Shown here piece by piece: positions 18,090 through 36,597 of a stretch of 58,880 bases of DNA. The notes beneath the pieces were generated by a model. The model did not search any database and had not been told where the DNA came from. It saw only the letters and a list, made by a program, of their open reading frames with translations. Each line of letters starts with the position of its first letter. Position 1 is the first letter of the stretch. The stretch comes from Gemmataceae bacterium (GTDB lineage Bacteria; Planctomycetota; Planctomycetia; Gemmatales; Gemmataceae): the NCBI GenBank assembly GCA_964201235.1, contig CAXNFS010000001.1, positions 1 to 58,880 on the forward strand. Direction: 5' to 3'. Made by a program: the position numbers and the translations under genes.

Positions 18090-18098
18090 AAAGCATCA

Positions 18099-20663: not shown

Positions 20664-21532
20664 AATACCTGATTAAACACACTACTTGTTACAACTATAT
20701 GGATACGGTATCCCTTTGCAGGAATATCATCCATGTATCACCACGAGAATACGAAAATCAACGCAATATTTTTGAAAATATAACCGTTACACCTACTCCA
20801 GAAATAATTGAATTTCAAAAAGATTATTTCGGAAACAAAGTTTGTTTTTTTACAATAGAAAAGCCTCACAAAAATTTAACAATCATTGCTGAATACGAAA
20901 CAGAAGTAACACCTAAAAATTACACTGGGTTTCTAGACCAACCTTGGAAAAAAGTAATCGATTTATTGCATGCAGATTCCTCCATTGAAACCATTCAAGC
21001 GCTTGAATATTTATATGATTCTTATTATGTTCAGAAACATGATGATTGGAAAGAATATGCAAGCAAATCATTCCAGCCTGGGAATTTATTTTTAAACTCA
21101 GTTATGGATTTAACTTCACGAATATTTACTGACTTTAAGTACCAACCGAATGCAACTACCATCGCAACTCCATTGCATGAAGTTTTCTTACAAAAGTCTG
21201 GAGTATGCCAAGATTTTTCGCATTTCCAAATCGCATGCTTACGAAGCTTGGGAATTCCAACCCGCTATGTTAGCGGATACTTACTGACCACCCCCAATCC
21301 TGATAAACCGAACTTAATTGGTTCAGATGCTTCTCATGCTTGGATTCAAGTTTATTATCCTGGAATCGGCTGGTTTGATTTTGATCCAACCAATAATCTT
21401 AGACCTTCAGACCAACATATTATTATTGGTTGGGGCAGGGATTATGATGATGTTAGCCCAGTTAAAGGTGTCATTTTGGGTGGTGAAAACCACACCATAA
21501 CAGTAGGTGTAAGTGTAATTGGAGCAGAGTAA
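20660..21532 (+). CDS. Transglutaminase family protein (Bact_transglu_N + transglutaminase core)
   Basis: GTG start within GTGA, overlapping the upstream stop. N-terminus is IKHTTCYNY. The triad is Cys183 (SGVCQDF), SHAWIQVY and FDFDPTN. Confidence 0.9.
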   Translation: MKYLIKHTTCYNYMDTVSLCRNIIHVSPREYENQRNIFENITVTPTPEIIEFQKDYFGNKVCFFTIEKPHKNLTIIAEYETEVTPKNYTGFLDQPWKKVIDLLHADSSIETIQALEYLYDSYYVQKHDDWKEYASKSFQPGNLFLNSVMDLTSRIFTDFKYQPNATTIATPLHEVFLQKSGVCQDFSHFQIACLRSLGIPTRYVSGYLLTTPNPDKPNLIGSDASHAWIQVYYPGIGWFDFDPTNNLRPSDQHIIIGWGRDYDDVSPVKGVILGGENHTITVGVSVIGAE

Positions 21533-24516: not shown

Positions 24517-25950
24517 TTACGACAAAATATCTTTTATTATTTTTGCAGGTTCGACACCAGTCAACTTGGCATTAAGGCCTTGAAATTTAAATGTTAAAGA
24601 ATCGTGGTTAATACCTAGCTGATTTAAAATAGTAGCATTTAAATCGTATACACTTACAGGATTTTCAGTGATGTTATAACAAAAATCATCAGTTGAACCA
24701 TATGCAAAACCTTTTTTAATGCCGGCTCCTGCTAGAAAAACAGAATAGCAACGGGGATGATGATCTCGACCATAATTATTCTCTGTAATACCGCCTTGCG
24801 AATAAATCGTTCTGCCAAATTCTCCACCCCAAACTATCAAGGTATCTTCTAATAAGCCTCGCTGTTTAAGATCTATGATTAAAGCTGCAGTAGCTTTATC
24901 AACATCGTTACATTGGCCTTTTATCGCATTTGGCAACCCGCCATGGTGATCCCACCCCATATGAAAAAGTTGGATAAATCTAACATTTCGCTCTGCCAAC
25001 CTTCGTGCAAGCAGGCAATTTGAAGCATAGCTTCCAGGCTTAGATACGTCGGGGCCGTAAAGATCCATAATATGTTTTGGTTCTTTAGAGGTATCGAGCA
25101 GATCAGGAACACTAGTTTGCATCCGAAACGCCATTTCATATTGGCTAATTCTTGTTTGAATTTCCGGATCGCCAACAGCATCAAAATGCTTTTTATTTAA
25201 AGCAGCAATTCTATCAAGCGAATCGCGCCTAGCCCCGGAATCCAAACCTGCCGGGTTTGATAAATATAAAACAGCATCGCCTTTGTTTCTGAACTTTACT
25301 CCTTGATGTTTTGAAGGTAGAAATCCTGCACTCCAAAGGCGATCGTAAAGAGGTTGGTCATCAGGTCTTCCAGTGCCGAATGAAGTAAGGACAACATATG
25401 CAGGCAATTCCTGATTCTCGCTACCCAATCCATAACTAACCCAAGAACCAATGCTAGGTTTACCAGCTAATTGAGAACCTGTTTGGCAAAAAGTAATAGC
25501 AGGGTCATGATTGATTGCTTCGGTATGCATAGATCGGATTAAAGTTATATCATCTGCAACAGAAGATATTCCAGGAATCAATTCACTTAACTCCATGCCA
25601 GACTTTCCATGTTTAGCAAACTTAAAAATGGATGGGGCAATGGGAAATTTAGACTGGCCTGAAGTCATCGTAGTAAGGCGTTGGCCTTTTCTTATAGAAT
25701 CAGGGAGATCCTCTCCTTTTCTAGATATCATTAATGGTTTATTGTCAAATAAATCCATCTGTGAAGGAGCACCCGATTGAAAAAGATAAATAACTCTTTT
25801 AGCTTTGGGTTTAATGTTGGTTGTATTTCCAAACAAACGTTGTGGACGCAAGGAATCCATTGCTGCAGCAGTCATCACCGAAGAAGCACCTTTAAAAAAA
25901 GTCCTTCGGTTCAATTGATCTTGGAATTGCAAAAGATTAGAAATTTTCAT
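24517..25950 (-). CDS. DUF1501 domain protein (Tat signal)
   Basis: NRRTFFKGASSVMTAAA is a Tat leader. It has FQSGAPSQMDLFDNKP, PSIGSWVSYGLGSEN, GGEFGRT and GRDHH. The longest ORF begins with a GTG at 25959. The ATG at 25950 has AGGCG upstream. Confidence 0.9.
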   Translation of the reverse strand: MKISNLLQFQDQLNRRTFFKGASSVMTAAAMDSLRPQRLFGNTTNIKPKAKRVIYLFQSGAPSQMDLFDNKPLMISRKGEDLPDSIRKGQRLTTMTSGQSKFPIAPSIFKFAKHGKSGMELSELIPGISSVADDITLIRSMHTEAINHDPAITFCQTGSQLAGKPSIGSWVSYGLGSENQELPAYVVLTSFGTGRPDDQPLYDRLWSAGFLPSKHQGVKFRNKGDAVLYLSNPAGLDSGARRDSLDRIAALNKKHFDAVGDPEIQTRISQYEMAFRMQTSVPDLLDTSKEPKHIMDLYGPDVSKPGSYASNCLLARRLAERNVRFIQLFHMGWDHHGGLPNAIKGQCNDVDKATAALIIDLKQRGLLEDTLIVWGGEFGRTIYSQGGITENNYGRDHHPRCYSVFLAGAGIKKGFAYGSTDDFCYNITENPVSVYDLNATILNQLGINHDSLTFKFQGLNAKLTGVEPAKIIKDILS

Positions 25951-25981
25951 TGGTATCACGCCTATAACTAAGGTTTTAAAA

Positions 25982-28900
25982 CTATTCTCGATTTACTACT
26001 TCATCTAAATTGAGAAGAATATTGGCAGAAAGAGTAAAAGCTGCCAATTCATTAATATCAATTGTGTTTGCACTAGAGGATTCACCGAGTGAGGTAAATC
26101 GTTTAGCATTTTCCGGTTTCGATTTAAATTCTTGATAATCTTTATAAAATCCCTTTAGTAATATTGATAACTCCGATGAATCTGGATGTCTGCCGGTAAC
26201 GATTCTAAAACCGGTAGTTAATTTATCCTCGGGAGTATTCCCACCTTCACGAATCATTTTTTCAGCAAGTTTTCGTGCAGCTTCAACATAAGTAATTTCA
26301 TTTAATAAAACTAATGCTTGAAGTGGGGTATTAGTTCTTGATCTTTTAACGCTGCAAGCTTCACGGTTAGGCGCATCAAAAAGAAGCATGGTGGGTGGAG
26401 CCGCTGTCCTTTTCCAGATGGTGTACATTGTCCTTCGGTAAAGGGCTTCACCTTTGTCGTGCTTATAATTTCTAAGATCCCCATATCGACTTGTTTCATC
26501 CCAAACGCCTTCAGGCATATAAGGGCGAACGGAAGGACCACCTGTTTTACTTACCATTAATCCACTTGCAAAAAGAGCTTGGTCTCTAAGAGTTTCACCT
26601 GACAAACGAAGCCTAGAACCCCTAGCAAGTAGTCGGTTTTCAGGGTCTATATTTAGCAAGTTAGGATTAAGATTAGAAGATTGCTGATAAACCGAACTCA
26701 TTACCACTATTTTTTGCATCGCTTTCATGTCCCAATTCAAAGATACAAACTTACTTGCAAGCCAATCAAGTAATTCCGGATGAGATGGGAATTCGGACTG
26801 AGAACCAAAGTTTTCGCTAGTACGAACTAAGCCATACCCAAAAAACTTTTCCCACATGCGATTAACCCAGACCCTTGATGTAAGAGGATTTGAAGGGTCG
26901 ACCATCCAATAGGCGAGACCTAACCTATTCATAGGTTTATCTTTGGGAAGCGGGGGAAGAACTGAAGGTAGACCTGCAACCACCTTAGGGCCCTTTTTGT
27001 CATATTCGCCTCGAATAAGCATGAAAGTATCTCTAACTGGTCCTTCTTTCATTACCATAACACCAGGTATATTTTTCTTACTATCAACAAGATTTGTTTT
27101 AAGAAGAACAAGTTTATCGCTAGCTACCTTATGTTCTTTGAACGATGTAGCCTTGTAATATTTTTTTAATTCTTCTTTTTGTTGAAGCGATCTTTTTTGG
27201 ATATCAATTTCAAGTATTTTTGTAATATTTAATGGAATTTGAAAACCATTGAGGGTGATCAATTCTCCGGGAACTGATGAAATAGCAATCCTGAAACGAC
27301 CAATATTATGCTGGGATAAAGCTTGGTGAGACAAACTTATTTTTATTGTGGCATTTTCCGGAATATCAACCAACTGAGGCGATAAAAACATGGCTTTAGT
27401 ATTATCCCGTCGAGTCGGCCCATCAACAGCCCAGCCTTTGGAAGAATCATTGCCTAGGACATTAGTAATATCCCAACCTTTCTGCGAATAATCCGCGATC
27501 GCTTTATTGAAAGATATTTTAAGAGGTATTTTTAAAGATGGGGATGATAACTCAGCTTCAATTTTTGAGAGCACAAAGTTCCCATTAGAAAACCGGCCCA
27601 AACTTTGATTGGGCAAAGATGGATCTGGAAAGCATTCCAGCAAAATTGCTGAAAAAGCACCTTTCGAAACATTAGATGTAATGGTGTAAACATCATTGGC
27701 TGGATTTTTACCACCAGCAAGATAGGAGCCATCTGGAAGCTTGCTAAATTTTGCACCGCCTTCGGATTTAACATTCGTTGGATTTAAAGGAATCCAAACA
27801 TTATTAGTTGATTTAGTTTTCTCTTTAAATTCTGGTTCCCATTCCTTGATCAGATCATCTACTTTTCCATCAAGTTTTAGAATTAGAGCTTCTTGCTCTT
27901 TGATTGCAAGTTGGATCTTCAAAGACTCCGCATTTTGTAGAGGAGATTCAATTTCTTCAACTGGGTCTGTGTTACCACCCGTTTGATTTCCTGCCAAGGT
28001 CCCACTTTCAGGAAGATTATTAAAGAACGCAAAGAATTGGTAAAACTCTTTTTGTGATATTGGATCGTATTTATGATCGTGACACCGAGCGCAAGCCAGG
28101 GTTAACCCCAACCAAGTTTGGCTAGTGGTGTCAACCCGGTCAATAACATTTTCAATCCGCCATTCTTCTGCAATAAGTCCACCTTCGCCATTGAGTCGGT
28201 GGTTCCTATTAAATCCTGTTGCAATAATTTGAGATTTGGTTGCATTAGGAAGCATGTCACCAGCAATTTGTTCAATGGTGAATTGATTAAAAGGCATGTT
28301 TGCGTTGTAAGCATTAATGACCCAATCTCGCCAAGGCCACATACTTCGACTTGAATCGGTTTGAAATCCATTACTATCAGCAAACCTTGCGTAATCAAGC
28401 CATTGCATAGCCATTCGCTCGCCATACTGATTCGAGGCAAGCAAGCGATCAACAACTTTTTCATACGCTTGGGGAGAATCATCACGAATATAATCATCAA
28501 CTTCCTTTAGGCTTGGAGGCAAACCAATTAAATCCAAAGTAAGCCTTCGGATTAAAACCTCTTTGGAGGCTTGAGGCGATGGATTAATATTGTTAGATTC
28601 GAGGCGGTTAAGCACAAAAGCATCGATAGGATTCTTTACCCACTTGCTATTAATAACACTAGGAACATTACTTAATTTAGGAACAACAAAAGCCCAATGC
28701 TCGCCATAATTAGCACCTTCATTAATCCATTGTTTGATTAATTTAATTTGATCAGCGTTTAGTTTTTTACCTGACTTTAGCGGGGGCATTAACCCATCGT
28801 CTTCTAGTTCAATTCGATGAACTAATTCACTATTCTTCGCATCTCGCACTAAGATGTTTTTAGCCCCTGATTTACCAACAGCGAAAACCCCCTCTTTGGT

Positions 28901-29089
28901 ATCCAAACGATAGTTAGCTTTTCGGTGGGACTGATCCGGCCCATGACACTGAAAACAATTCTCAGAAAGAATAGGGCGAATCTGTCTATTAAAATCAATC
29001 TCGACTGCGTAAATAAATTGCCCACAGATAGAAACAACAAAAAGAGTAATAAGTATATTTTTAAAAAATACAATGATATTCATGATCAT
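25982..29089 (-). CDS. PSCyt1/DUF1549/DUF1553 protein
   Basis: IRPILSENCFQCHG, RRLTLDLIGLPP, CARCHDHKYDP and HPELLDWLA. The longest ORF starts at 29167. The ATG at 29089 (MIMNIIVFF..., signal-peptide-like) has GGCGGA upstream. Confidence 0.9.
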   Translation of the reverse strand: MIMNIIVFFKNILITLFVVSICGQFIYAVEIDFNRQIRPILSENCFQCHGPDQSHRKANYRLDTKEGVFAVGKSGAKNILVRDAKNSELVHRIELEDDGLMPPLKSGKKLNADQIKLIKQWINEGANYGEHWAFVVPKLSNVPSVINSKWVKNPIDAFVLNRLESNNINPSPQASKEVLIRRLTLDLIGLPPSLKEVDDYIRDDSPQAYEKVVDRLLASNQYGERMAMQWLDYARFADSNGFQTDSSRSMWPWRDWVINAYNANMPFNQFTIEQIAGDMLPNATKSQIIATGFNRNHRLNGEGGLIAEEWRIENVIDRVDTTSQTWLGLTLACARCHDHKYDPISQKEFYQFFAFFNNLPESGTLAGNQTGGNTDPVEEIESPLQNAESLKIQLAIKEQEALILKLDGKVDDLIKEWEPEFKEKTKSTNNVWIPLNPTNVKSEGGAKFSKLPDGSYLAGGKNPANDVYTITSNVSKGAFSAILLECFPDPSLPNQSLGRFSNGNFVLSKIEAELSSPSLKIPLKISFNKAIADYSQKGWDITNVLGNDSSKGWAVDGPTRRDNTKAMFLSPQLVDIPENATIKISLSHQALSQHNIGRFRIAISSVPGELITLNGFQIPLNITKILEIDIQKRSLQQKEELKKYYKATSFKEHKVASDKLVLLKTNLVDSKKNIPGVMVMKEGPVRDTFMLIRGEYDKKGPKVVAGLPSVLPPLPKDKPMNRLGLAYWMVDPSNPLTSRVWVNRMWEKFFGYGLVRTSENFGSQSEFPSHPELLDWLASKFVSLNWDMKAMQKIVVMSSVYQQSSNLNPNLLNIDPENRLLARGSRLRLSGETLRDQALFASGLMVSKTGGPSVRPYMPEGVWDETSRYGDLRNYKHDKGEALYRRTMYTIWKRTAAPPTMLLFDAPNREACSVKRSRTNTPLQALVLLNEITYVEAARKLAEKMIREGGNTPEDKLTTGFRIVTGRHPDSSELSILLKGFYKDYQEFKSKPENAKRFTSLGESSSANTIDINELAAFTLSANILLNLDEVVNRE

Positions 29090-29215
29090 AAATCCGCCTA
29101 TGTAAATAATAAGATGCAGTGTCTTTGATAACAGAAGCAAGATCAACAACTGTAAGTTAAAAATCAAGCCATTGAAGATTGTAACTTAAAGTTTCATCAT
29201 CAAAACCAAATAAAT

Positions 29216-29463: not shown

Positions 29464-30378
29464 TTAAACCGGTAAGGGTGGTCTTCCACGCTGAGGCAAA
29501 ACGGCAGGTGGAAATAATCCTCTAGCGTAGTCAGCCAAATGGCACATAGTGTCGCCATAAAAATGAAACTTTATCTTTTTTCGAATCGCAGGAGTTAACC
29601 CTTGCCCACCAACTACAAGAACAGTGCCCGCATTACAAACTTTTTCAAATAGTAAAAGGTTGTCTTTAACAAATTCGTCAACATTAGAAATACTGGTCGT
29701 AGACATCCAAACAAGCCTAGGTTTAAAATGATTGATACCATCAATAAACGACTCAATCGGGGTATTGGATCCAATATTTACTGTATTCCAACCAAGATCA
29801 AACAATAAAATATCTACCAACATATTGCTTAATTGATAATGGTCATTAGTGATACAGCCCCCAATCGCAATAGGCCCGTTAGTATTATCTCTTGAGTTGA
29901 TAAAGTTACGCAATTTAAAAAGAGTAGAAATGCAAATCTGAGTAGCGCAATGTTCATAAAAAATTGGGAGGGTACCGTTCACCCACTCTTCACCAATTCT
30001 AGCCATACTAGGTTGAATAATTTCATCTGTAATTTTCTCAATAGGCATTTTGTTTTTATAAGCAGATAAAATAATATTATTGCAAGATAGTAGACTTTGA
30101 TTACGAAGAGCTTGATAAAAATTATCAGCAGAAATCTGAAGAAATTCGCTATTACTCGGTTGGGTTTCAATTAGAGGCAACTTAGAAAAATCACCAACGG
30201 GCAAAACACCCTGCCGTGAAAGTCTGATTAAATCAGCTACTAAAATTTTCCTATGCCCGCCCGGAGTTATGTCAGCTGGAAGAATTTTGTCATCCACCCA
30301 CCTCTTAACTGTCGAAACGCTAACGCCGAGAATCTTACCGGCTAACTGGCTTGAGATATATTGAGCTACATCCATCAT
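29464..30378 (-). CDS. CarH/LitR-like transcriptional regulator: excisionase-type HTH + B12-binding (four-helix bundle + Rossmann-like) region
   Basis: The N-terminus LAGKILGVSVSTVKRWVDDKILPA..TPGGHRKI is an excisionase/MerR-superfamily HTH. An exact W-x9-E-H motif (W132...E142-H143, nt 29985..29950) is present. The downstream flavodoxin-like segment is GPIAIGGCITNDHYQLS...NIG...RLVWMS..., with His180 at the lower-ligand position. Confidence 0.7.
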   Translation of the reverse strand: MMDVAQYISSQLAGKILGVSVSTVKRWVDDKILPADITPGGHRKILVADLIRLSRQGVLPVGDFSKLPLIETQPSNSEFLQISADNFYQALRNQSLLSCNNIILSAYKNKMPIEKITDEIIQPSMARIGEEWVNGTLPIFYEHCATQICISTLFKLRNFINSRDNTNGPIAIGGCITNDHYQLSNMLVDILLFDLGWNTVNIGSNTPIESFIDGINHFKPRLVWMSTTSISNVDEFVKDNLLLFEKVCNAGTVLVVGGQGLTPAIRKKIKFHFYGDTMCHLADYARGLFPPAVLPQRGRPPLPV

Positions 30379-30458
30379 TTAACTCGCTGAAAACTATATT
30401 AAAACAAGTAACCCTGATCTTATCGTCATTCTATAGCATAAAATGACAACCAAAAGCT

Positions 30459-30527
30459 AAATCGTGCAAATCGTTTTAATTATGTTGACACTGCCAAATT
30501 GCTCCGGTAATGTAAATAGAACGATTT
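30459..30527. promoter_or_regulatory. Candidate operator repeats around the sigma-factor promoter
   Basis: AAATCGT occurs at 30459-30465 and 30468-30474 (direct, 9-bp register). Its complement ACGATTT occurs at 30521-30527. Confidence 0.3.
30485..30513 (+). promoter_or_regulatory. Sigma-70-type promoter candidate (TTGACA-17 nt-TAATGT)
   Basis: A perfect -35 hexamer lies at 30485-30490. After a 17-nt spacer, TAATGT lies at 30508-30513, 40 nt upstream of the sigma-factor ATG. Confidence 0.35.
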
Positions 30528-30552
30528 GAACCTTTAGCGACGGAGTGTTTTA

Positions 30553-31350
30553 ATGACCACCAAACTTATCAAAGATCATTCATCCCAGCCTTCAGAGTCC
30601 GGGATTAAGTTTATTTACAATAAATCTTTTAATACCAGAAAAGCGCTTAAGCTTTACCATCCTTCGAATTTTTCTTCTGTTGATTTTACTGATTCCTACA
30701 TGCCTGAAGATTACACAAAAGATATCTCCAGAAGAATGCACTATGCTGGTTTTCGTTTTTTCAATGAACCTAATGTTTCCCGCAAAAAGTTCTGGAAAAA
30801 GGCTTATTTTGATTTGAGAAACTTAGTTGTTGAAGGTAACCGAAAGTTAGTTTTTAAAGCCGTGAATAAATGGACTCCCATGCGATTCATGGCGGATGAC
30901 AATTCAAGCAATTGTACAATTGTTCTGATACAGGCAGTAGCTGCTTTCAATCCTTGGAAAGGTATAAGATTCAGTACCTATGCATTCACTTGCCTCATGC
31001 GCGCTTTGTCTAGGCTCAATTATAAAAATACTGCAGAAAAGATGGTACAGTGTGAATCATTAGATCATTTGTTTGGAAACAATTTTGATGTTCCAGGCAG
31101 TTCTTCGGTTCCGGTTTCTCATACTAATTCACTTGCGGTTCTTGATACCTATTTTTCCAAGGATTGTGATATACTTGATGAGAGAGAAAAATTGATTCTA
31201 TCTGAACGATTTGGATTAGGCGATAAACCCCTTACAAGTTTGGAAGAAGTAGGTAAACTCCTTAAACTTTCAAAAGAACGGGTAAGGCAGATTCAATTTA
31301 TTGCTCTGGAAAAACTTCGTAAAGTTTTAATTCCTAACAATGCCTTTTAG
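30553..31350 (+). CDS. RNA polymerase sigma factor, sigma-70 family (group-3-like)
   Basis: Region 2 is NRKLVFKAVNKW...LIQAVAAFNPWKGIRFSTYAFTCLMRAL. Region 4 is EREKLILSERFGL...SLEEVGKLLKLSKERVRQIQFIALEKLR. Confidence 0.8.
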   Translation: MTTKLIKDHSSQPSESGIKFIYNKSFNTRKALKLYHPSNFSSVDFTDSYMPEDYTKDISRRMHYAGFRFFNEPNVSRKKFWKKAYFDLRNLVVEGNRKLVFKAVNKWTPMRFMADDNSSNCTIVLIQAVAAFNPWKGIRFSTYAFTCLMRALSRLNYKNTAEKMVQCESLDHLFGNNFDVPGSSSVPVSHTNSLAVLDTYFSKDCDILDEREKLILSERFGLGDKPLTSLEEVGKLLKLSKERVRQIQFIALEKLRKVLIPNNAF

Positions 31351-31377: not shown

Positions 31378-32121
31378 ATGTCTTTCAGTAATTCTTCTTT
31401 TATAGTGATCGGTGCTTATGGTGGTATTGGTTCTGTTGTTTCTAAGATTTTAAAAGAAAATGGTGCTAACTTACTTTTAGCTGGCAAAGATGCATCAAAA
31501 CTTGAAGCTTTATCGAATGATTTAAATACTCCGTTTTTTAATCTGGATGCCTCAGATTTTTCCCAAGTGGATTCTCTCATTGAGTTTGCTATCAAAACCT
31601 TCGGGGCTATTGATGGGATTGTTAATTGCTGTGGATCTCTCTTATTAAAACCAGCCCACATTACCTCTGAAGCAGAATACTTTTCTGTAATACAATCTAA
31701 TCTTACATCTTCTTTTGCTACCATACGAAGTGGGTGCAAAGCGATGATGGGTCGAGGCGGTTCTGTTGTTTTAATTTCCTCCGCTGCTGCTAAGGTTGGT
31801 CTGGCTAATCACGAGGCTATTGCTTCCGCTAAAGCCGGTATAATTGGGTTAACAAAGTCTGCTGCAGCAACTTATGCATCTAAAAATATAAGGGTAAATT
31901 GCGTAGCACCCGGATTAATTAACACACCTTTAACAAAATCCATCACCAACAATGAAAATGCCTTGAAAGCATCTGTTTCTATGCATCCTCTTGGTAAAAT
32001 TGGATCCCCCTCCGACATTGCTTCTGCAGTTGTTTGGCTTCTCGACCCTTCGAATTCTTGGATTACTGGTCAAACTATTGTTGTCGATGGTGGGCTTTCA
32101 TCGCTTAAAACTCGTGGATAG
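31378..32121 (+). CDS. Short-chain dehydrogenase/reductase fold protein lacking the catalytic Tyr
   Basis: GAYGGIGS is the glycine-rich NAD(P) motif, and VNCVAPG and ITGQTIVVDGG are classical SDR blocks. The YxxxK position reads I148-A-S-A-K152 (att at 31819-31821). The gene starts 27 nt after the sigma gene. Confidence 0.85.
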   Translation: MSFSNSSFIVIGAYGGIGSVVSKILKENGANLLLAGKDASKLEALSNDLNTPFFNLDASDFSQVDSLIEFAIKTFGAIDGIVNCCGSLLLKPAHITSEAEYFSVIQSNLTSSFATIRSGCKAMMGRGGSVVLISSAAAKVGLANHEAIASAKAGIIGLTKSAAATYASKNIRVNCVAPGLINTPLTKSITNNENALKASVSMHPLGKIGSPSDIASAVVWLLDPSNSWITGQTIVVDGGLSSLKTRG

Positions 32122-32230
32122 TTTTATCACCTGATTATTGCTCAAACCAAGCCCCTTGTTCATTTCGACAAAAGACTCATTCTTATTTATTTTTGGTTTC
32201 CAAACACTATTGATTTAGGTTATTTTAAGT

Positions 32231-32965
32231 ATGAACAATTTTTTCATACTGGAGAATAATGTGCTTATATTTTCAAAAATCAATGTATCTAAGATGACTG
32301 TTTTTGCCCTTCTCTTAGGCTTCCTTTTAGTTGCTAAGACTGGATTTTCCCAGGCACCCAATGAAAAAGCTGAATGGAAATCGCTTTTTGATGGAAAGAC
32401 TCTCAAAGGATGGAAGCAATCTGATTTTTTTAAACCCGGGAAGAGTTCTGTGAAGGATGGTGCTATTATTTTGGAAAAAGGTACAAAAATGACTGGGCTT
32501 ACCTACGATGGCAAAGATTTCCCAAAAATGAATTACGAAGTCAGTTTGGAAAGTAAGCGTGTTGATGGCAGAGATTTTTTCTGCACCACTACTTTTCCCG
32601 TTGGTGATTCTTTTTGCTCTTTTGTGGTTGGAGGATGGGGTGGATCTGTTACCGGTCTTTCAAGTATTGATGGTATTGATGCATCTGAAAATCAAACCGG
32701 GCAGGGTATAGAATATAAAAATGATCAGTGGTACAAAATCCGCATCCGTGTTACCGACAAAAGAGTTGAAACATGGATAGACAAGGAACAAACTGTCGAC
32801 CTTGACACCTCGGATGTAAAGCTTGGGATCCGAATTGAATGTAATGTATCCACTCCTTTTGGTATTGCATCGTATGACACCGTTGGCGCAGTCAAGGATA
32901 TAAAAGTACGGAATCTTTCCGTTGCTGAAATTAAGGAAGTTGCCAAGAAATCGATTAAAAAATAA
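32231..32965 (+). CDS. DUF1080 (3-keto-disaccharide hydrolase family) protein, secreted
   Basis: WKSLFDGKTLKGWKQ, later GGWGGS and QWYKIRIRV, on a concanavalin-like fold. The true start is probably internal: GTG 32261 preceded by GGAGA, or ATG 32294. Either gives the signal peptide MTVFALLLGFLLVAKTGFS. Confidence 0.8.
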   Translation: MNNFFILENNVLIFSKINVSKMTVFALLLGFLLVAKTGFSQAPNEKAEWKSLFDGKTLKGWKQSDFFKPGKSSVKDGAIILEKGTKMTGLTYDGKDFPKMNYEVSLESKRVDGRDFFCTTTFPVGDSFCSFVVGGWGGSVTGLSSIDGIDASENQTGQGIEYKNDQWYKIRIRVTDKRVETWIDKEQTVDLDTSDVKLGIRIECNVSTPFGIASYDTVGAVKDIKVRNLSVAEIKEVAKKSIKK

Positions 32966-32983
32966 GGCTTAAGAAAGGCTAAA

Positions 32984-33718
32984 ATGCAAAATCAAGCTGC
33001 AATTGTTACTGGTGGTGGTACTGGGATTGGTAAATCAACATCTTTACTTTTAGCATCCAAAGGTTTTAAAGTTGTTGTGAATTATTCCCGGTCAGCCAAG
33101 GAAGCTGAAGAAACTTGCTCGGAAATTATTAAGCTTGGGGGTGAAGCCATCCCCTACAAAGCAAACATATCGGATGATAAGGCTGTAAAGGAAATGGCAC
33201 AAAAATGCTCAGCCATGTTTGGCGGAATCGATGTTCTCGTTAACAATGCTGGGACAACTCATTTTATTGATCATAACGACCTAGATGCTTTAACAGATCA
33301 GGTATGGGATGACATTTTCTCAGTTAATATGAAAGGCACCTTTTACGCTTGCAGGGCAGTTATGCCGGAATTGAAAAAATCCCGTGGGAATATTGTAAAT
33401 GTTACTTCGGTTGCAGGCTTGGCAGGAAATGGCAGCTCAATTCCCTATGCGATGAGCAAAGCTGCGCTTAACTGCATGACAAAATCGCTTGCCAAAGCTT
33501 TTGCTCCTGAAGTTCGGGTGAATGCCGTTGCGCCTGGCCCCGTATTAACGCGATGGTTAGCCCCACACCCTAAAATGATTGAACAATCGTTGGCGTTAAC
33601 CCCCATGAAGCGGGCGGCAACCGGAGATGATATTGCTGCTGCTATAGTTTTTCTTGCAACCGGAACAAATCTAATGACTGGCCAAATAATGGTAGTTGAT
33701 GGTGGCAGAACCATGTAG
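32984..33718 (+). CDS. SDR family oxidoreductase (FabG-like)
   Basis: TGGGTGIGKS, NNAG, canonical S...YAMSKAAL, and VNAVAPG. Confidence 0.9.
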   Translation: MQNQAAIVTGGGTGIGKSTSLLLASKGFKVVVNYSRSAKEAEETCSEIIKLGGEAIPYKANISDDKAVKEMAQKCSAMFGGIDVLVNNAGTTHFIDHNDLDALTDQVWDDIFSVNMKGTFYACRAVMPELKKSRGNIVNVTSVAGLAGNGSSIPYAMSKAALNCMTKSLAKAFAPEVRVNAVAPGPVLTRWLAPHPKMIEQSLALTPMKRAATGDDIAAAIVFLATGTNLMTGQIMVVDGGRTM

Positions 33719-33761: not shown

Positions 33762-33790
33762 TTGACATTAGATGATTTTGACCCTAATTT
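33762..33790 (+). promoter_or_regulatory. Sigma-70-type promoter candidate (TTGACA-17 nt-TAATTT)
   Basis: TTGACA lies at 33762-33767. After a 17-nt spacer, TAATTT lies at 33785-33790. This is in the 110-nt gap before the propeller/photolyase/GIY-YIG genes. AGGAG lies 7 nt before the TTG start at 33829. Confidence 0.35.
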
Positions 33791-33828
33791 GTGAACGATA
33801 TAGTCGTTTATCTCTTTAGGAGTTTAAT

Positions 33829-35076
33829 TTGCTACACATTTTTCAAGCCACCACTTTAGGGGTTTTATTCGTATTTATTTCATTTGGTTTTGCAGGTGAA
33901 CCGTATCTTTGGAACCAATGGCGCGGACCAAACCGTGATGGTTTTCATTTAGGTAATTCCTTCCCGAGCAATTTAGCAAAGGAATCTTTACAACTTTCTT
34001 GGAAAGCAAATCTTGGGCCTAGCTATTCAGGCCCAATTGTCTCTGATCAACTCGTGTTCACAACAGAAACAAAAAACAAAGAATCTGAAGTTGTTCATGC
34101 CTACGACCGAAAAACAGGAAAAGAAATTTGGGCCACCGAATGGAAAGGTGCGATGTCTGTTCCCTTTTTTGCAGGCTCAAATGGCAGTTGGATTAGAGCT
34201 ACCCCTGCTTTTGATGGCGAATGCTTGTATGTTGCAGGAATTAAAGATGTACTTGTTTGCCTAAACGCAACGGATGGTAAAGAAAAATGGCGAATAGATT
34301 TTGTAGAGCAATTCAAAACACCTGTGCCTAGCTTCGGCTTTGTGTCTTCGCCGTTAATTGATGGCGATGCGATTTATGTACAGGCAGGGGCTTCTGTTTT
34401 CAAACTTAACAAAAAAAATGGCGCCGTTATTTGGAGATCATTCAAAGATTCAGGTGGTATGAATGGCAGTGCCTTTGCTTCACCTTTAATGACTACGCTT
34501 GGGGGCCAAAAACAACTTCTTATCCAATCAAGGGAAAAACTTGCAGGGTTAAATCCTGAAAATGGCGATGTCCTTTGGTCGAAGGTTATACCGAATTTTC
34601 GGGGCATGAATATTTTCACTCCCGTTGTTATTGGGGACACCATATTTGCAAGCACTTACCAAAACAAATCTTGGCTTTATAAAGTCAGTAAAAATGATTC
34701 AGGATTTGCAGTAAATGAAGTTTGGGAAAATAAACTGCAAGGTTACATGTCAACTCCTGTAGTCATCAACGGTTTCGCCTACATGCACCTTCAAAATCAG
34801 AGATTTACTTGCGTCGATTTATCAAATGGAGAAACTAAATGGACATCGCCTAAGTCTTTTGGAAAGTACTGGAGTTTGATTGCATATAAAAATCGAATTC
34901 TAGCACTTGATCAAAAGGGGATTCTCTATCTTATTGAGGCAGATCCGAAAGAATTTAAGGTCTTGGAAACTAGGGAAATAACTGAAAATGAATCTTGGGC
35001 TCACTTAGCGATCAGTGGAGATCAGATTTTCATTCGCGATCTAAAAACCCTTTCTGTTTTTCAATGGAAGAATTAA
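33829..35076 (+). CDS. PQQ-like beta-propeller repeat protein, secreted
   Basis: A signal peptide is followed by WNQWRGPNRDG. Blade repeats contain ..G...W.. A paralog of the 6907-8220 gene. Confidence 0.8.
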   Translation: MLHIFQATTLGVLFVFISFGFAGEPYLWNQWRGPNRDGFHLGNSFPSNLAKESLQLSWKANLGPSYSGPIVSDQLVFTTETKNKESEVVHAYDRKTGKEIWATEWKGAMSVPFFAGSNGSWIRATPAFDGECLYVAGIKDVLVCLNATDGKEKWRIDFVEQFKTPVPSFGFVSSPLIDGDAIYVQAGASVFKLNKKNGAVIWRSFKDSGGMNGSAFASPLMTTLGGQKQLLIQSREKLAGLNPENGDVLWSKVIPNFRGMNIFTPVVIGDTIFASTYQNKSWLYKVSKNDSGFAVNEVWENKLQGYMSTPVVINGFAYMHLQNQRFTCVDLSNGETKWTSPKSFGKYWSLIAYKNRILALDQKGILYLIEADPKEFKVLETREITENESWAHLAISGDQIFIRDLKTLSVFQWKN

Positions 35077-35085
35077 TACACATTC

Positions 35086-36597
35086 ATGGCTACAAGCGTA
35101 CCTCCAATCCGAATTACACTATGCAATAATCGCCCTATAAATCATGAGGGGGATTTTGTTCTTTACTGGATGATTGCTAATCGAAGAATGGATTCCAACT
35201 ATAGCCTTCAACGAGCAATCGAATGGTGCATCGAATTAAAAAAGCCATTAGTCATTCTCGAAGCACTTCGGATTAATTATCCATGGGCAAGCCAAAGACT
35301 TCATAAATTCGTAATTGATGGCATGAAAGATAATGCAAATGCGGTCGAACTCGAAGGCAATAAAGGGGTATTGTACTATCCTTATTTAGAACCTAAGCAC
35401 GGTGATCAAGCTGGATTGCTCGAATCTTTATCCAAAAAAGCCTGTGCAGTAGTTACTGATGATTTTCCTTCTTTCTTTATTCCTGCAATGATTCGACTGG
35501 TTTCGAGCCAAATTCCGGTCCTCTTTGAAAAAGTTGATTCTAATGGAATACTTCCGCTTCATTCTACCGATCGTGTTTTTACCACAGCATTTTCATTCAG
35601 AGCCTATTTGCATAAAAACTTGATAGAGTATCTCGGAGATTTTCCAAAGCAAAATCCACTTACAGGGATTGATCTTCCCAAATTCGGGGAATTACCCAAA
35701 CAAATAACAAACAAATGGCCTTCAGCTTTACCGATACTCAGAGCCAAAGGTGACAAGTTTATTGAAGGCCTTAGTATCGATCATTCTGTAAAAGCATCTT
35801 TCATTTTAGGGGGCGCAAAGGCTGCAAAAAAAGCTACAGAACTATTCTTAAAATCTAATCTTATTCAGTACAAAGATTTAGGAAATGAGCCAGATGAAAA
35901 TGTGCGTAGTGGTCTTTCCCCATACCTTCATTTTGGACACATTTCTTCGCATTATGTATTCAAACAGCTCGCTAAGCAAGAGGGCTGGAACCCTTCACAT
36001 TTGTCTGCAAAAGGCGGAGGTAAAAGGGAAGGGTGGTGGAATATGAGCCCCGCTGCTGAATCTTTCCTCGACGAGTTAATTACATGGCGTGAAATTGGCT
36101 ACAATATGTGTTCTAAGCGTCTTGATTACGATCGTTACGAATCGTTGCCTTCCTGGGCTAAAGACAGCTTAAAAAAACACACTAGCGATAAAAGACCCTT
36201 TATTTACACTCTAGATGAGTTTCAAGCATGCAAGACGCATGATGCCTTGTGGAACGCTGCGCAAAATCAACTTAATAATGAGGGAAGAATTCATAACTAC
36301 CTTCGAATGCTTTGGGGGAAAAAGATTTTAGAATGGTGTGAAACCCCTCAAGATGCGCTCAAAATTATGATTGAACTCAATAACAAATTAGCTCTTGATG
36401 GGCGGAATCCAAACTCATACAGTGGGATTTTCTGGGTTTTAGGAAGATATGACCGGCCTTGGGGCCCTGAAAGGCCAATTTTTGGATCTATCCGTTTTAT
36501 GAGTTCAGTTAACACTCAAAAAAAACTCAATGTTAAAAAATACCTTGCTAAATATGGCGTAGATTCAAATACTCAAGGTGAATTTAATTTCTCTTAA
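35086..36597 (+). CDS. phr: Deoxyribodipyrimidine photolyase, class II
   Basis: 503 aa. It has FVLYWM.ANRR, SPYLHFGHIS, FLDELITWREIGYN, GRIHNYLRMLWGKKILEW and DGRNPNSY.GI.W. These blocks are characteristic of class II CPD photolyases. Confidence 0.9.
   Translation: MATSVPPIRITLCNNRPINHEGDFVLYWMIANRRMDSNYSLQRAIEWCIELKKPLVILEALRINYPWASQRLHKFVIDGMKDNANAVELEGNKGVLYYPYLEPKHGDQAGLLESLSKKACAVVTDDFPSFFIPAMIRLVSSQIPVLFEKVDSNGILPLHSTDRVFTTAFSFRAYLHKNLIEYLGDFPKQNPLTGIDLPKFGELPKQITNKWPSALPILRAKGDKFIEGLSIDHSVKASFILGGAKAAKKATELFLKSNLIQYKDLGNEPDENVRSGLSPYLHFGHISSHYVFKQLAKQEGWNPSHLSAKGGGKREGWWNMSPAAESFLDELITWREIGYNMCSKRLDYDRYESLPSWAKDSLKKHTSDKRPFIYTLDEFQACKTHDALWNAAQNQLNNEGRIHNYLRMLWGKKILEWCETPQDALKIMIELNNKLALDGRNPNSYSGIFWVLGRYDRPWGPERPIFGSIRFMSSVNTQKKLNVKKYLAKYGVDSNTQGEFNFS

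What the first reader, a model, noticed from the sequence alone, without database searches (positions are those of the whole stretch)
29464..30378. CarH/LitR-like cobalamin photoreceptor-regulator with an excisionase-type HTH, divergent from a sigma factor
**Seen in the sequence.**
- The 304-aa protein has an N-terminal excisionase/MerR-superfamily HTH (LGVSVSTVKRWVDDKILPA).
- A helical region contains an exact W-x9-E-H motif (EEW-VNGTLPIFY-EH; W132 at 29985..29983, H143 at 29952..29950).
- A Rossmann-like segment follows, with His180 in N-D-H-Y-Q-L where canonical B12-binding domains have (D/E)-x-H-x-x-G.

**Established knowledge.**
- W-x9-E-H is the signature that caps the upper face of 5'-deoxyadenosylcobalamin in CarH-type photoreceptors.
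- LitR-type regulators are classically adjacent to a sigma-factor gene (litS).
- CarH/LitR regulons include photoprotection and photolyase genes.

**Inference.**
- This is a light/B12-responsive repressor of the divergent sigma-70-family gene (30553-31350), and possibly of the photolyase operon about 3.4 kb downstream.
- The non-canonical DNA-binding domain and the degenerate lower-ligand motif make it a variant architecture. I am not aware of one characterised in Planctomycetota.
Basis: partly seen in the sequence, partly recalled or inferred. Interest (0 to 1): 0.7.

Follow-up and report, generated by a model that had tools for sequence, protein, structure and literature searches.

The report
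Tyrosine-variant B12-type regulator guarding a sigma/photolyase cluster
This planctomycete gene encodes a CarH-like, vitamin-B12-type light-sensor regulator that most likely switches off a neighbouring sigma-factor gene and a DNA-photolyase operon in the dark, but it and most of its large family carry a tyrosine where all characterised relatives use a histidine to hold the cobalt.

Summary
ORF 29464-30378(-) encodes an HTH_17 winged helix, a four-helix bundle with an exact W-x9-E-H, and a Rossmann B12-binding domain.

**Closest characterised relative.** It is CtMerR of Chloracidobacterium thermophilum (PDB 8JBS; E 8e-31, TM 0.84), a proven AdoCbl light-responsive protein with the same architecture. 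The architecture is therefore not new.

His180 is not the cobalt-ligand position. CtMerR His204 aligns with Tyr181.
- That column is Tyr in 60 of 86 genome homologues and 126 of 149 cluster representatives. It is His in only 4 and 5.
- The upper-face residues stay near-invariant.
- His re-arose three times within the window's own clade.

**New here: a conserved operator.**
- The motif is a tandem 9-bp direct repeat, AAWCGTYCA.
- It occurs in 29 of 33 distant regulator-sigma intergenic regions, about 230-fold enriched.
- A matrix built only from those distant loci puts the window's top three hits at the sigma promoter (30459-30478 and 30517-30536) and at a promoter before the beta-propeller/class II photolyase genes (33791-33810).

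**Best reading.** A dark-state repressor in a LitR-LitS-like circuit, with a non-canonical, probably His-off, corrinoid site. Cobalamin binding and the light response are untested.

**Verdict.** New variant of a known kind.

The parts
29464..30378 (-). Regulator gene, 304 aa (likelier start at the second ATG, 30375): HTH_17 winged helix + four-helix bundle + Rossmann cobalamin-binding domain + C-terminal RGRP tail
   Evidence: ORF. Pfam. CtMerR/8JBS at E 7.8e-31 over residues 9-293. AF2 model at pLDDT 88.1; Foldseek top hit 8jbs_B with target-normalised TM 0.84, then TtCarH.
30223..30342 (-). DNA-binding domain (residues 13-52), excisionase/BldC/RacA-like winged HTH
   Evidence: HTH_17 at 30.7 bits (cut-off 27); MerR at 24.1 bits, below its cut-off of 28.2. 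Excisionase TIGR01764 at E 2e-4 and HTH_BldC at E 8e-3. RacA 5I41 at E 2e-3 and the CtMerR N-terminus at E 1e-4. The model gives helix-helix-hairpin-helix.
29932..30123 (-). Four-helix bundle (B12-binding_2, residues 86-149) carrying G129-x-x-W132 and E142-H143 (the W-x9-E-H cap)
   Evidence: The motif residues are conserved in at least 90% of homologues. They align to CtMerR G153, W156, E166 and H167.
29578..29868 (-). Rossmann-type B12-binding domain (residues 171-267), including G203-S-N-T-P207 (the GxxxP signature) and G257-G258
   Evidence: PF02310 at 29.1 bits (cut-off 32.1). Alignments to methionine synthase and corrinoid proteins. T206, P207 and G258 are invariant.
29836..29844 (-). 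D179-H180-Y181: an altered lower-ligand motif. Asp is kept, Tyr sits at the canonical cobalt-ligating His position, and His180 occupies the variable 'x' position
   Evidence: Gap-free alignment to CtMerR D202-L203-H204 and to MetH D-V-H. Family census of that column: Y in 60 of 86 and H in 4 of 86; Y in 126 of 149 and H in 5 of 149. Three independent Y-to-H changes in the window's clade.
29479..29490 (-). C-terminal R297-G-R-P300, an AT-hook-like motif in a disordered tail
   Evidence: P295, G298 and P300 are at least 90% conserved. [RK]GRP occurs in the last 45 residues of 75 of 85 distinct homologues. The tail has low pLDDT. The resemblance to an AT-hook is my own reading.
30459..30476 (+). 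Operator site 1: two tandem 9-bp units, AAATCGTGC AAATCGTTT, ending 8 bp upstream of the sigma -35 hexamer
   Evidence: Repeat D3. Invariant block across four orthologous loci. Best PWM hit in the whole window, with a matrix built only from distant loci (16.7).
30485..30513 (+). Predicted promoter of the sigma gene: -35 TTGACA (30485-30490), 17-bp spacer, -10 TAATGT (30508-30513)
   Evidence: Read. TTGAC plus TAATAT/TACAAT-like hexamers are conserved in the orthologues. A GTCAA(G/C) block sits at the same relative place in distant loci. The simple scan did not call this promoter, because the -10 matches only 3 of 6.
30517..30536 (-). Operator site 2, in inverted orientation: TAAAGGTTC AAATCGTTC TA. 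It starts 4 bp downstream of the -10 and so covers the expected transcription start of the sigma gene
   Evidence: Invariant block GTTCA.A.CGTTC in the orthologues. Second-best PWM hit in the window (14.0). Tandem repeats hold the same position in 29 of 33 distant loci.
30553..31350 (+). Divergent sigma-70-family factor, 265 aa (regions 2 and 4, with an 88-aa N-terminal extension)
   Evidence: Pfam r2 and r4. TIGR02937 at 53.1 bits (cut-off 42.9). Region 4 is closest to RpoS/SigA. An orthologue (38-48% identity) lies divergent from the regulator in 33 of 69 distant loci and in all close ones.
31378..33718 (+). Three co-oriented genes downstream of sigma: an SDR (31378-32121), a 3-keto-disaccharide-hydrolase/DUF1080-like protein (32231-32965) and an SDR (32984-33718)
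   Evidence: Pfam. Gene order is conserved in the close clade. No evidence that they are regulated beyond co-orientation.
33762..33790 (+). Predicted second promoter: -35 TTGACA (33762-33767), 17-bp spacer, -10 TAATTT (33785-33790)
   Evidence: TTGAC is invariant in four orthologues.
33791..33810 (-). Operator site 3: TAAACGACT ATATCGTTC AC. It abuts the -10 of the second promoter, in the same orientation and position as site 2
   Evidence: Third-best PWM hit in the window (12.1). An equivalent site ranks among the top three hits in orthologous loci L001, L003, L011, L014, L018 and L019, at the same distance from the regulator.
33829..35076 (+). Secreted PQQ_2/BamB-like beta-propeller protein, 415 aa
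   Evidence: PF13360 at E 6e-49. A homologue follows the sigma gene directly in 16 distant sigma-linked loci.
35086..36597 (+). Class II CPD photolyase, 503 aa, starting 9 bp after the beta-propeller gene
   Evidence: E 5e-75 to 8OET and 1.8e-74 to 2XRY (Methanosarcina class II photolyase). Conserved in the clade at 72-86% identity.

Best explanation
**What it is.** The gene encodes a CarH/CtMerR-type photosensory repressor.

**How it binds DNA.** Its CBD-mediated oligomer places BldC/excisionase-like winged-helix domains head-to-tail on tandem 9-bp direct repeats (AAWCGTYCA). Three such sites exist in the window:
- one pair just upstream of the -35 of the divergent sigma gene;
- one inverted pair over the sigma transcription start;
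- one pair over the start of a second promoter in front of the beta-propeller and class II photolyase genes.

**How it responds.** In the dark the cofactor-loaded oligomer blocks these promoters. Light cleaves the upper ligand of a bound corrinoid, which is capped by W132, E142 and H143. That changes or dissolves the oligomer and frees the promoters. The sigma factor then amplifies the response, as LitS does in the LitR-LitS circuit.

**How it differs from known relatives.** Unlike CarH and CtMerR, no histidine ligates the cobalt from below. Tyr181 lies under the corrin, so the cofactor is probably held His-off: five-coordinate, or with Tyr or water below.

**Shown versus inferred.**
- Shown: homology, fold, motif states, synteny, and operator conservation and position.
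- Inferred: repression, oligomeric state, corrinoid binding, coordination mode and light response.
For: **Homology to a proven AdoCbl photoreceptor**
- Full-length homology to CtMerR, E 7.8e-31. CtMerR binds AdoCbl, and light cleaves its Co-C bond (PMC11796333).
- The AF2 model (pLDDT 88) matches the 8JBS CBD at TM 0.84, then TtCarH.

**Cofactor pocket**
- Three of the four elements of the published light-responsive CBD signature are present: GxxW, EH and GxxxP. They are near-invariant across the family.
- D179 and G257-G258 of the canonical B12 motif are also kept.
- Canonical His re-arose three times on a Tyr background among close orthologues that share synteny and operators. This argues that the pocket still holds a corrinoid.
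- Cobalamin can be bound with a non-coordinating residue below the cobalt. In Mmp10 that residue is Leu322 and the cobalt is five-coordinate (PMC8828468).

**Operator**
- The tandem 9-bp repeats are invariant blocks in orthologous intergenic regions.
- The strict tandem pattern occurs in 29 of 33 distant sigma-linked intergenic regions, at 3.4 per kb against 0.015 per kb elsewhere in the same loci.
- A PWM built only from distant loci ranks 30459-30478, 30517-30536 and 33791-33810 as the top three hits in 58.9 kb. The same three-site pattern appears in six orthologous loci.
- Sites 2 and 3 overlap the predicted transcription starts of promoters with a 17-bp spacer.
- BldC protomers each bind a 9-bp direct repeat head-to-tail (PMC5859096).

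**Circuit and regulon**
- Streptomyces LitR-AdoB12 represses the bidirectional litR/litS promoters (PMC11519972).
- The regulon content fits a light response. A class II photolyase lies in the cluster. A photolyase homologue lies near a paralogue in L057. Phytoene-desaturase-family genes lie next to paralogues in four loci.
Against: - The cobalt-ligating His is absent (Y181). The column is Tyr, Ser, Ala or Thr in about 95% of the family.
- In the SignatureFinder study, a CBD with Arg at this position was the negative control.
- H180 is not conserved: that column is Pro in 68 of 149 representatives. No alternative conserved His exists.
- The PF02310 match is below its gathering score. The CarH equivalog model scores 39 bits against a cut-off of 400.
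- In a third of family representatives (48 of 149) the EH pair is ER.
- B12-independent members of the CarH/LitR family are known, for example class II LitR.
- Single-site PWM scores are not significant on their own. The maximum in 30 shuffles reached 18.4, against 16.7 observed. The weight comes from position and cross-species conservation.
- No experiment supports binding, repression or a light response.
Confidence: 0.55

Rival explanations
1. A B12-independent repressor, analogous to Myxococcus CarA or class II LitR. The CBD-like module has lost the cofactor and serves only for oligomerisation or for docking a separate photoreceptor or other signal protein. The DNA-level circuit (operators, sigma, photolyase) is as described.
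For: - The canonical His is missing in about 95% of the family. The column holds residues that cannot all coordinate cobalt: Tyr, Ser, Ala, Thr and Phe.
- Class II LitRs keep only part of the B12 module, work without B12 and use a LOV partner.
- The EH pair is ER in 48 of 149 representatives.
- The B12-binding Pfam match is sub-threshold.
Against: - Residues that only make sense as cofactor contacts are near-invariant over more than 1,200 clusters: G-x-x-W, E(H), the Asp of D-x-H, G-x-x-T-P and GG.
- The exact canonical (D/E)-x-H motif was regenerated three times in one clade.
- No candidate partner photoreceptor gene (LOV, BLUF or phytochrome) recurs among the neighbours.
Confidence: 0.27
2. 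A sensor of cobalamin availability rather than of light. The corrinoid acts as a co-repressor that reports B12 status, and illumination is irrelevant in vivo.
For: - The CBD fold and the conserved upper-face residues are compatible with any corrinoid ligand.
- No cobalamin riboswitch is present in the window, so protein-based B12 sensing is conceivable.
Against: - The regulated genes include a class II photolyase, and paralogues sit next to phytoene-desaturase-family genes and a photolyase homologue. No B12 uptake, synthesis or B12-dependent enzyme genes were seen near the regulator.
- W-x9-E-H is the cap for the photolabile 5'-deoxyadenosyl group in CarH and CtMerR.
Confidence: 0.08
3. A MerR-style activator that remodels the sigma promoter, rather than a repressor.
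For: - The DNA-binding domain belongs to the MerR superfamily in the broad sense (MerR at 24.1 bits; TipA and Mta appear among weak PDB hits).
- In the Streptomyces model, light-converted LitR is drawn as activating litS.
Against: - Both predicted promoters have optimal 17-bp spacers and consensus TTGACA -35 elements. They lack the 19-20-bp spacer that MerR activators correct.
- The repeats are direct, not palindromic, and they flank the core promoter rather than lying inside the spacer.
- The protein has no MerR coiled-coil dimerisation helix.
Confidence: 0.05

Closest known systems
CtMerR of Chloracidobacterium thermophilum (WP_157850694; PDB 8JBS dark state, 8JBT light state; Yu et al., FEBS J 2024, PMC11796333)
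   Same: - Same three-part layout: a TPGGHR-type winged HTH, a four-helix bundle and a Rossmann CBD.
- Full-length alignment at E 7.8e-31. The CBD model superposes at TM 0.84.
- Shares GxxW, EH and GxxxP.
- The residue after the Trp is not His (Arg in CtMerR, Val here), so the bis-His light state of TtCarH is excluded in both.
   Different: - CtMerR ligates cobalt through His204. The window protein has Tyr181 there (GxxH becomes N-D-H-Y).
- CtMerR is acidobacterial, and its operator and regulon are unknown.
- Whether CtMerR has the C-terminal RGRP tail could not be seen.
TtCarH / class I LitR (Thermus thermophilus; PDB 5C8D, 5C8E, 5C8F, 3WHP)
   Same: - The CBD fold and the W-x9-E-H cap.
- A regulator that binds direct repeats over a promoter.
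- A photoprotective regulon.
   Different: - CarH has a classical MerR-family HTH and three 11-bp repeats (the 11-bp figure is from my own knowledge). Here the HTH is BldC/excisionase-like and the repeats are 9 bp.
- CarH has His177 as lower ligand and His132 for the bis-His photoproduct. Both are absent here.
- Sequence similarity to CarH is marginal (E 0.1 to 5C8D; equivalog model at 39 of 400 bits).
Streptomyces LitR-LitS module
   Same: A B12-type regulator gene paired with a sigma-factor gene whose promoter it represses from a shared bidirectional region. The sigma factor then drives the light regulon.
   Different: - LitR has a MerR HTH and a canonical His.
- LitS is an ECF sigma. Here the sigma has an RpoS/SigA-like region 4 and an 88-aa N-terminal extension.
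- The regulator here also appears to act directly on a second operon.
BldC of Streptomyces (MerR-like wHTH; PMC5859096)
   Same: A minimal MerR-like/excisionase-like winged HTH without a coiled coil. Each BldC protomer binds one 9-bp direct repeat head-to-tail, and sites hold variable numbers of repeats. That is the same periodicity and the same variable repeat number (2 to 4) seen here.
   Different: - BldC is a stand-alone 68-residue protein with no sensor domain.
- Its repeat is AATTxxxxC, not AAWCGTYCA.
- The sequence match to the BldC model is weak (16 bits against a cut-off of 77).
B12-independent CarH/LitR relatives (class II LitR PplR/PmlR; Myxococcus CarA)
   Same: Members of the family that keep part of the B12 module but do not need B12. 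Their regulons include photolyase.
   Different: Class II LitRs lack the Rossmann domain altogether. The window protein keeps a complete CBD, with every signature element except the His.

Membership tests
CarH / class I LitR (AdoB12-dependent MerR-family photoreceptor repressors) | N-terminal classical MerR-family HTH (PF00376 / PF13411) | tested here: not met
   MerR at 24.1 bits (cut-off 28.2) and MerR_1 at 11.9 bits (cut-off 21.6). The best match, and the only HTH model above its threshold, is HTH_17 at 30.7 bits (cut-off 27).
CarH / class I LitR (AdoB12-dependent MerR-family photoreceptor repressors) | Four-helix bundle with the W-x9-E-H cap over the 5'-deoxyadenosyl group | tested here: met
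   W132-x9-E142-H143 is exact. B12-binding_2 is above its cut-off. The motif is conserved in the family.
CarH / class I LitR (AdoB12-dependent MerR-family photoreceptor repressors) | Rossmann domain with (D/E)-x-H-x-x-G, the His being the lower axial cobalt ligand | tested here: not met
   The motif reads D179-H180-Y181-Q-L-S, with Tyr at the His column. PF02310 is below its cut-off.
CarH / class I LitR (AdoB12-dependent MerR-family photoreceptor repressors) | Curated equivalog model (NF052513 TransRegCarH) | tested here: not met
   39.2 bits against a cut-off of 400.
CarH / class I LitR (AdoB12-dependent MerR-family photoreceptor repressors) | AdoCbl binding, dark-state oligomer on DNA, and light-induced release | not testable with these tools
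   Needs purified protein, UV-vis spectroscopy, SEC-MALS and EMSA.
CtMerR-type light-responsive CBD regulators (SignatureFinder signature GxxW / EH / GxxH / GxxxP) | GxxW | tested here: met
   G129-E-E-W132 aligns to CtMerR G153..W156.
CtMerR-type light-responsive CBD regulators (SignatureFinder signature GxxW / EH / GxxH / GxxxP) | EH | tested here: met
   E142-H143 aligns to E166-H167.
CtMerR-type light-responsive CBD regulators (SignatureFinder signature GxxW / EH / GxxH / GxxxP) | GxxH (His = lower axial ligand, His204 in CtMerR) | tested here: not met
   N178-D-H-Y181 aligns to G201-D-L-H204. Most of the family reads G-D-P-Y or H-D-H-Y.
CtMerR-type light-responsive CBD regulators (SignatureFinder signature GxxW / EH / GxxH / GxxxP) | GxxxP | tested here: met
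   G203-S-N-T-P207 aligns to the G-P-N-T-P of CtMerR. T-P is invariant in 30 homologues.
CtMerR-type light-responsive CBD regulators (SignatureFinder signature GxxW / EH / GxxH / GxxxP) | Full-length homology and the same domain order | tested here: met
   E 7.8e-31 over residues 9-293. The DNA-binding domain alone gives E 1e-4. TM 0.84 to the CBD crystal structure.
LitR-LitS-type regulator / sigma module | Regulator and sigma genes adjacent, with a shared regulated promoter region | tested here: met
   Divergent pair with a 174-bp spacer that carries conserved operator repeats on both sides of the sigma core promoter. The pairing is conserved in 33 of 69 distant loci.
LitR-LitS-type regulator / sigma module | Partner sigma is ECF-type | tested here: inconclusive
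   Only regions 2 and 4 are detected. The generic r2-r4 model TIGR02937 passes at 53.1 bits (cut-off 42.9). The best matches are RpoS, SigK and RpoD, region 4 is closest to RpoS/SigA, and there is an 88-aa N-terminal extension.
BldC-family wHTH regulators | Binding to 9-bp direct repeats head-to-tail in variable numbers | tested here: inconclusive
   Conserved tandem 9-bp direct repeats (2 to 4 units) lie next to the regulator gene. Physical binding was not tested. The BldC model scores 16 bits against a cut-off of 77, so this is a working analogy, not membership.

The most novel reading that the evidence does not exclude
The Tyr-type CBD defines a large, unstudied class of corrinoid photoreceptors. 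It covers more than 1,200 clusters at 50% identity, almost all in Planctomycetota. These proteins would hold AdoCbl without a histidine ligand, either five-coordinate His-off with Tyr packed under the cobalt, or Tyr-O-ligated. That would give different absorption and photochemistry from CarH. Natural Tyr-to-His switches would act as a tuning knob. The sensor would be coupled to BldC-like head-to-tail DNA recognition plus an AT-hook-like tail, and would control a dedicated sigma factor.
Probability: 0.35. Interest if true: 0.8.

Novelty: new variant of a known kind. Interest (0 to 1): 0.62.

Why it matters
**B12 photoreceptors.** Those known so far (CarH/LitR, CtMerR and the photocobilins) are found by mining for a signature that includes the cobalt-ligating histidine. 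That filter would skip this whole planctomycete family. If Tyr-type domains bind and photolyse AdoCbl, the coordination chemistry, the spectral range and the count of B12 photoreceptors would all widen. CarH-derived optogenetic tools and light-responsive materials would also gain new parts.

**Testable circuit.** The operator, the promoters and the regulon proposed here give the first testable light-response circuit for Planctomycetota. Carriers that can be cultured exist: Limnoglobus roseus PX52, Singulisphaera sp. Ch08 and strain Pan216. CtMerR-type regulators have had no known DNA site; this work proposes a candidate site for the planctomycete relatives.

**If they do not bind B12.** The family would then be a large example of a cofactor domain re-used as a scaffold, with its upper-face residues unaccountably conserved.

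Tried and rejected
- **His180 as a shifted lower ligand: rejected as a general explanation.** The alignments have no gap between beta-1 and the GW motif, so His180 is a substitution at the 'x' position. That column is Pro in 68 of 149 representatives and varies within the window's own clade (Y, I, N, F, Q). It is common (D-H-Y) in the sigma-linked subgroup, so a local role is not excluded.
- **MerR-type activation: rejected.** See the fourth rival explanation.
- **Strict tandem regular expression.** It found no hit in the window, because the window's units deviate at one position. A PWM was used instead.
- **PWM site scores against shuffles.** The scores are not significant on their own. I rely on position and orthologue conservation.
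- **Promoter scan.** The simple scan did not call the sigma promoter. The promoter was identified by hand and by conservation.
- **Rfam.** No family, and in particular no cobalamin riboswitch, matched anywhere in the window.
- **Literature.** No paper combines CarH, Planctomycetes and cobalamin. I found no precedent for Tyr at the His position of a CarH-type domain. Only the open-access library was searched.
- **Regulator's own promoter.** A TGcTATAGA extended -10 lies near 30430-30438. It is not conserved in the orthologues, so I make no claim.
- **Cofactor docking and oligomer modelling.** Neither was possible. Model coordinates are not exposed.
Full report
**1. The observation**

The ORF at 29464-30378 on the minus strand is present and 304 aa long. 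Homologues start at the second Met, so the true start is probably 30375.

Pfam finds three domains:
- HTH_17 at residues 13-52 (30.7 bits, cut-off 27).
- B12-binding_2 at residues 86-149 (23.9 bits, cut-off 23).
- B12-binding at residues 171-267 (29.1 bits, just under the cut-off of 32.1).

The classical MerR models are below threshold. NCBIfam gives only weak, sub-threshold hits to corrinoid proteins, CarH (39 of 400 bits), excisionase and BldC.

The divergent gene at 30553-31350 is a sigma-70-family factor with regions 2 and 4. The 503-aa ORF at 35086-36597 is a class II CPD photolyase (E 5e-75 to 8OET, 1.8e-74 to 2XRY).

**2. Closest characterised relative**

A sequence search of the PDB gives one strong hit: 8JBS, E 7.8e-31, aligned over residues 9-293. 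This is CtMerR of Chloracidobacterium thermophilum. Yu et al. [quoted passage not shown] They solved its CBD in dark and light states and defined the signature GxxW / EH / GxxH / GxxxP.

An AlphaFold2 model of the window protein (pLDDT 88.1) matches the CtMerR CBD best (TM 0.84 normalised to the target). TtCarH, the photocobilins and the MetH/MttC corrinoid domains follow.

That member's operator, regulon and physiology are still unknown.

**3. The lower-ligand position**

The gap-free alignments to CtMerR and to methionine synthase put three residues as follows:
- D179 on the canonical Asp.
- Y181 on the cobalt-ligating His. My count of the 8JBS numbering reproduces the paper's G153, W156, E166, H167, G201 and H204, and places His204 opposite Y181.
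- H180 on the variable middle position.

This is not a quirk of one sequence:
- Among 86 distinct homologues taken from species-representative genomes, the column is Y 60, S 16, A 4, T 2 and H 4.
- Among 149 of the best representatives of clusters at 50% identity, it is Y 126, S 8, T 6, H 5, F 2, D 1 and A 1.
- In the same sets the rest of the pocket is kept. G-x-x-W is invariant in the 86 genome homologues; Trp is present in 140 of 149 representatives.
- E-H is present in 85 of 86. It splits into EH 96 and ER 48 among the representatives.
- The Asp is invariant in the 86 and present in 144 of 149.
- G-x-x-T-P and GG are invariant in the 86 genome homologues.

The family is large. It has 1,220 clusters at E of 1e-30 or better. 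It is almost entirely planctomycete: Gemmataceae, Isosphaeraceae, Pirellulales and others, including the cultured Limnoglobus roseus PX52, Singulisphaera sp. Ch08 and Pan216.

Within the window's own AT-rich freshwater clade, a neighbour-joining tree with Fitch parsimony gives Tyr as the ancestral state. It gives three independent Tyr-to-His changes, which recreate N-E-H-H, N-D-Y-H and G-D-Q-H. The window's N-D-H-Y state is shared by four independent assemblies at 94-98% identity and by a 93-member cluster. It is not a sequencing error.

My reading is inference. The upper face is strictly kept, and the canonical His has returned repeatedly. Both argue that the pocket still holds a corrinoid, but normally without a His ligand. 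Mmp10 is a precedent for cobalamin bound with a non-coordinating residue under the cobalt (Leu322, five-coordinate; PMC8828468). I found no precedent for Tyr at this position in a CarH-type domain.

**4. Gene neighbourhood**

In close relatives (57-75% identity) the whole arrangement is conserved. The regulator is divergent from this gene series:
- sigma;
- SDR;
- DUF1080-like protein;
- SDR;
- PQQ-type beta-propeller;
- class II photolyase.

In distant relatives (33-48% identity, mostly GC-rich genomes):
- An orthologous sigma (38-48% identity, near full length) lies immediately upstream and divergent in 33 of 69 loci.
- In Pan216 a sigma gene lies downstream.
- In 16 of the sigma-linked loci the next gene after sigma is a homologue of the window's beta-propeller.
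- The remaining loci are paralogues without a sigma gene. Some genomes carry both kinds, for example L038 and L039 on one contig.
- These paralogues often sit divergent from a fasciclin-domain gene (17 loci).
- In four loci they sit next to a phytoene-desaturase-family flavoprotein.
- In L057 a photolyase homologue lies nearby.

**5. Operator**

Alignment of the regulator-sigma spacer from four orthologous loci shows two invariant blocks in otherwise diverged DNA: AAACGATTT..ACGATTT and GTTCA.A.CGTTC. In the window these are two tandem AAATCGT heptamers spaced 9 bp apart (30459-30474) and one inverted copy (30521-30527).

The same feature appears in distant, GC-rich loci. It takes the form of two to four tandem 9-bp units, AAWCGTYCA:
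- A strict tandem pattern occurs in 29 of 33 distant sigma-linked spacers. Its density is 3.4 per kb against 0.015 per kb in the rest of those loci.
- A looser pattern lies within 400 bp upstream of 34 of 38 non-sigma paralogues. I estimate that about 5 would be expected by chance from the background density.

I built a position weight matrix only from the distant loci and scanned the 58.9-kb window on both strands. The three best hits were:
- 30459-30478 (+), score 16.7.
- 30517-30536 (-), score 14.0.
- 33791-33810 (-), score 12.1.

The scores alone are not beyond shuffled sequence, where the maximum reached 18.4. The positions carry the weight. By my estimate, two random positions would both fall in the 174-bp spacer with probability around 1e-5. 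The same three-site pattern, with the third site about 3.43 kb from the regulator, recurs in orthologous loci L001, L003, L011, L014, L018 and L019.

**6. Promoter geometry**

The following is read from the sequence:
- Sigma gene: -35 TTGACA at 30485-30490, a 17-bp spacer, and -10 TAATGT at 30508-30513. The hexamers are conserved in the orthologues. A GGAG Shine-Dalgarno sequence precedes the ATG.
- Site 1 ends 8 bp upstream of the -35.
- Site 2 starts 4 bp after the -10 and so covers the expected transcription start.
- Second promoter: TTGACA at 33762-33767, a 17-bp spacer, and TAATTT at 33785-33790. TTGAC is invariant in the orthologues. It lies before the beta-propeller gene.
- Site 3 abuts this second -10 in the same orientation as site 2.
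- The photolyase gene starts 9 bp after the beta-propeller gene ends, so it is probably co-transcribed.

Operators over transcription starts of promoters with optimal spacing point to repression, not MerR-style activation.

**7. How the DNA-binding domain fits**

The domain is a helix-turn-helix with a beta-hairpin wing and one more helix, without a coiled coil. Its nearest sequence relatives are the CtMerR N-terminus, RacA, excisionases and, weakly, BldC.

Each BldC protomer binds one 9-bp direct repeat head-to-tail, and BldC sites carry variable numbers of repeats (PMC5859096). That is the periodicity and the variability seen here.

The window has 2 + 2 units at the sigma promoter. This would suit the four DNA-binding domains of a CarH/CtMerR-type tetramer, but that is speculation.

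The C-terminal P-x-R-G-R-P-P tail is conserved in 75 of 85 homologues and predicted to be disordered. It looks like an AT-hook and could contact the A/T half of each unit. This is also speculation.

**8. Comparison with known systems**

- The circuit logic matches Streptomyces LitR-LitS, where LitR-AdoB12 represses the bidirectional litR/litS promoters and sigma-LitS drives the light regulon (PMC11519972). Here the sigma is not ECF-like in sequence, and the regulator appears to hit a second operon directly.
- The sensor is closest to CtMerR but fails one of the four signature elements.
- It is not a CarH or class I LitR member. It fails the tests for the MerR HTH, the His ligand and the equivalog score.
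- B12-independent relatives exist, such as class II LitR, and that possibility is the main rival.

**9. Verdict**

The regulatory wiring is now well supported by comparative genomics. The B12 and light input is plausible but unproven, and it is made less certain and more interesting by the family-wide His-to-Tyr replacement.
- It is a new variant of a known kind.

Noticed in passing
window 29479-29490 (residues 297-300): The regulator's disordered C-terminal tail carries a conserved P-x-R-G-R-P-P motif that looks like an AT-hook. It is present in 75 of 85 distinct homologues. Neither CarH nor CtMerR is described as having one.
   Followed up: partly
window 33829-35076; loci L033, L034, L036 and others: A secreted PQQ_2/BamB-like beta-propeller gene is the most conserved gene after the sigma factor. 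It follows sigma directly in 16 distant loci. Its role in a putative light regulon is unknown.
   Followed up: partly
L009 7259-7744 and 16 other non-sigma loci: Paralogues of the regulator that lack a sigma partner usually sit divergent from a small secreted fasciclin-domain (FAS1) gene. They keep the 9-bp repeat motif upstream. I have no functional explanation.
   Followed up: partly
L062 (divergent gene 278 bp upstream of the regulator) and three other loci: A phytoene-desaturase-family flavin amine oxidase (PF01593, E 4e-34) lies next to regulator paralogues, as carotenoid genes do next to CarH/LitR. L057 has a photolyase homologue (55% identity) about 1.7 kb from its regulator.
   Followed up: partly
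family alignment, column of H143: In 48 of 149 cluster representatives the E-H of W-x9-E-H is E-R. The His that controls adenosyl-radical chemistry in CarH is therefore also replaceable in part of the family.
   Followed up: no
window 30375-30378: The ORF opens with ATGATG. Homologues begin at the second Met, so the annotated length is probably 303 aa.
   Followed up: yes
L014, L018, L022, L065, L071 (record titles): MAGs labelled 'Candidatus Kuenenia' or 'uncultured Alcaligenaceae' carry loci 35-94% identical to this Gemmataceae-type gene cluster. These are probably mislabelled or contaminated bins. The window's nearest genome is a Lake Mendota Gemmataceae MAG (98% identity).
   Followed up: no
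window 25982-29167 and 24517-25959: A PSCyt1/PSCyt2/PSD1 protein lies next to a DUF1501 gene immediately downstream of the regulator. This is a typical planctomycete gene pair and shows no sign of belonging to the regulon.
   Followed up: partly
window 14673-21532: A gene cluster of DUF2126 amidoligase/transglutaminase, circularly permuted ATP-grasp plus Alpha-E, and transglutaminase-like proteins. Phosphoenolpyruvate carboxylase follows at 21537-24296 (-). Unrelated to the finding.
   Followed up: no
window 37003-40893: A 1,296-aa multidomain protein (ThuA, F5/8 type C, DUF7133, cytochrome c) lies directly after the photolyase gene. Its position is conserved in the close clade. Whether it is co-regulated is unknown.
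   Followed up: no
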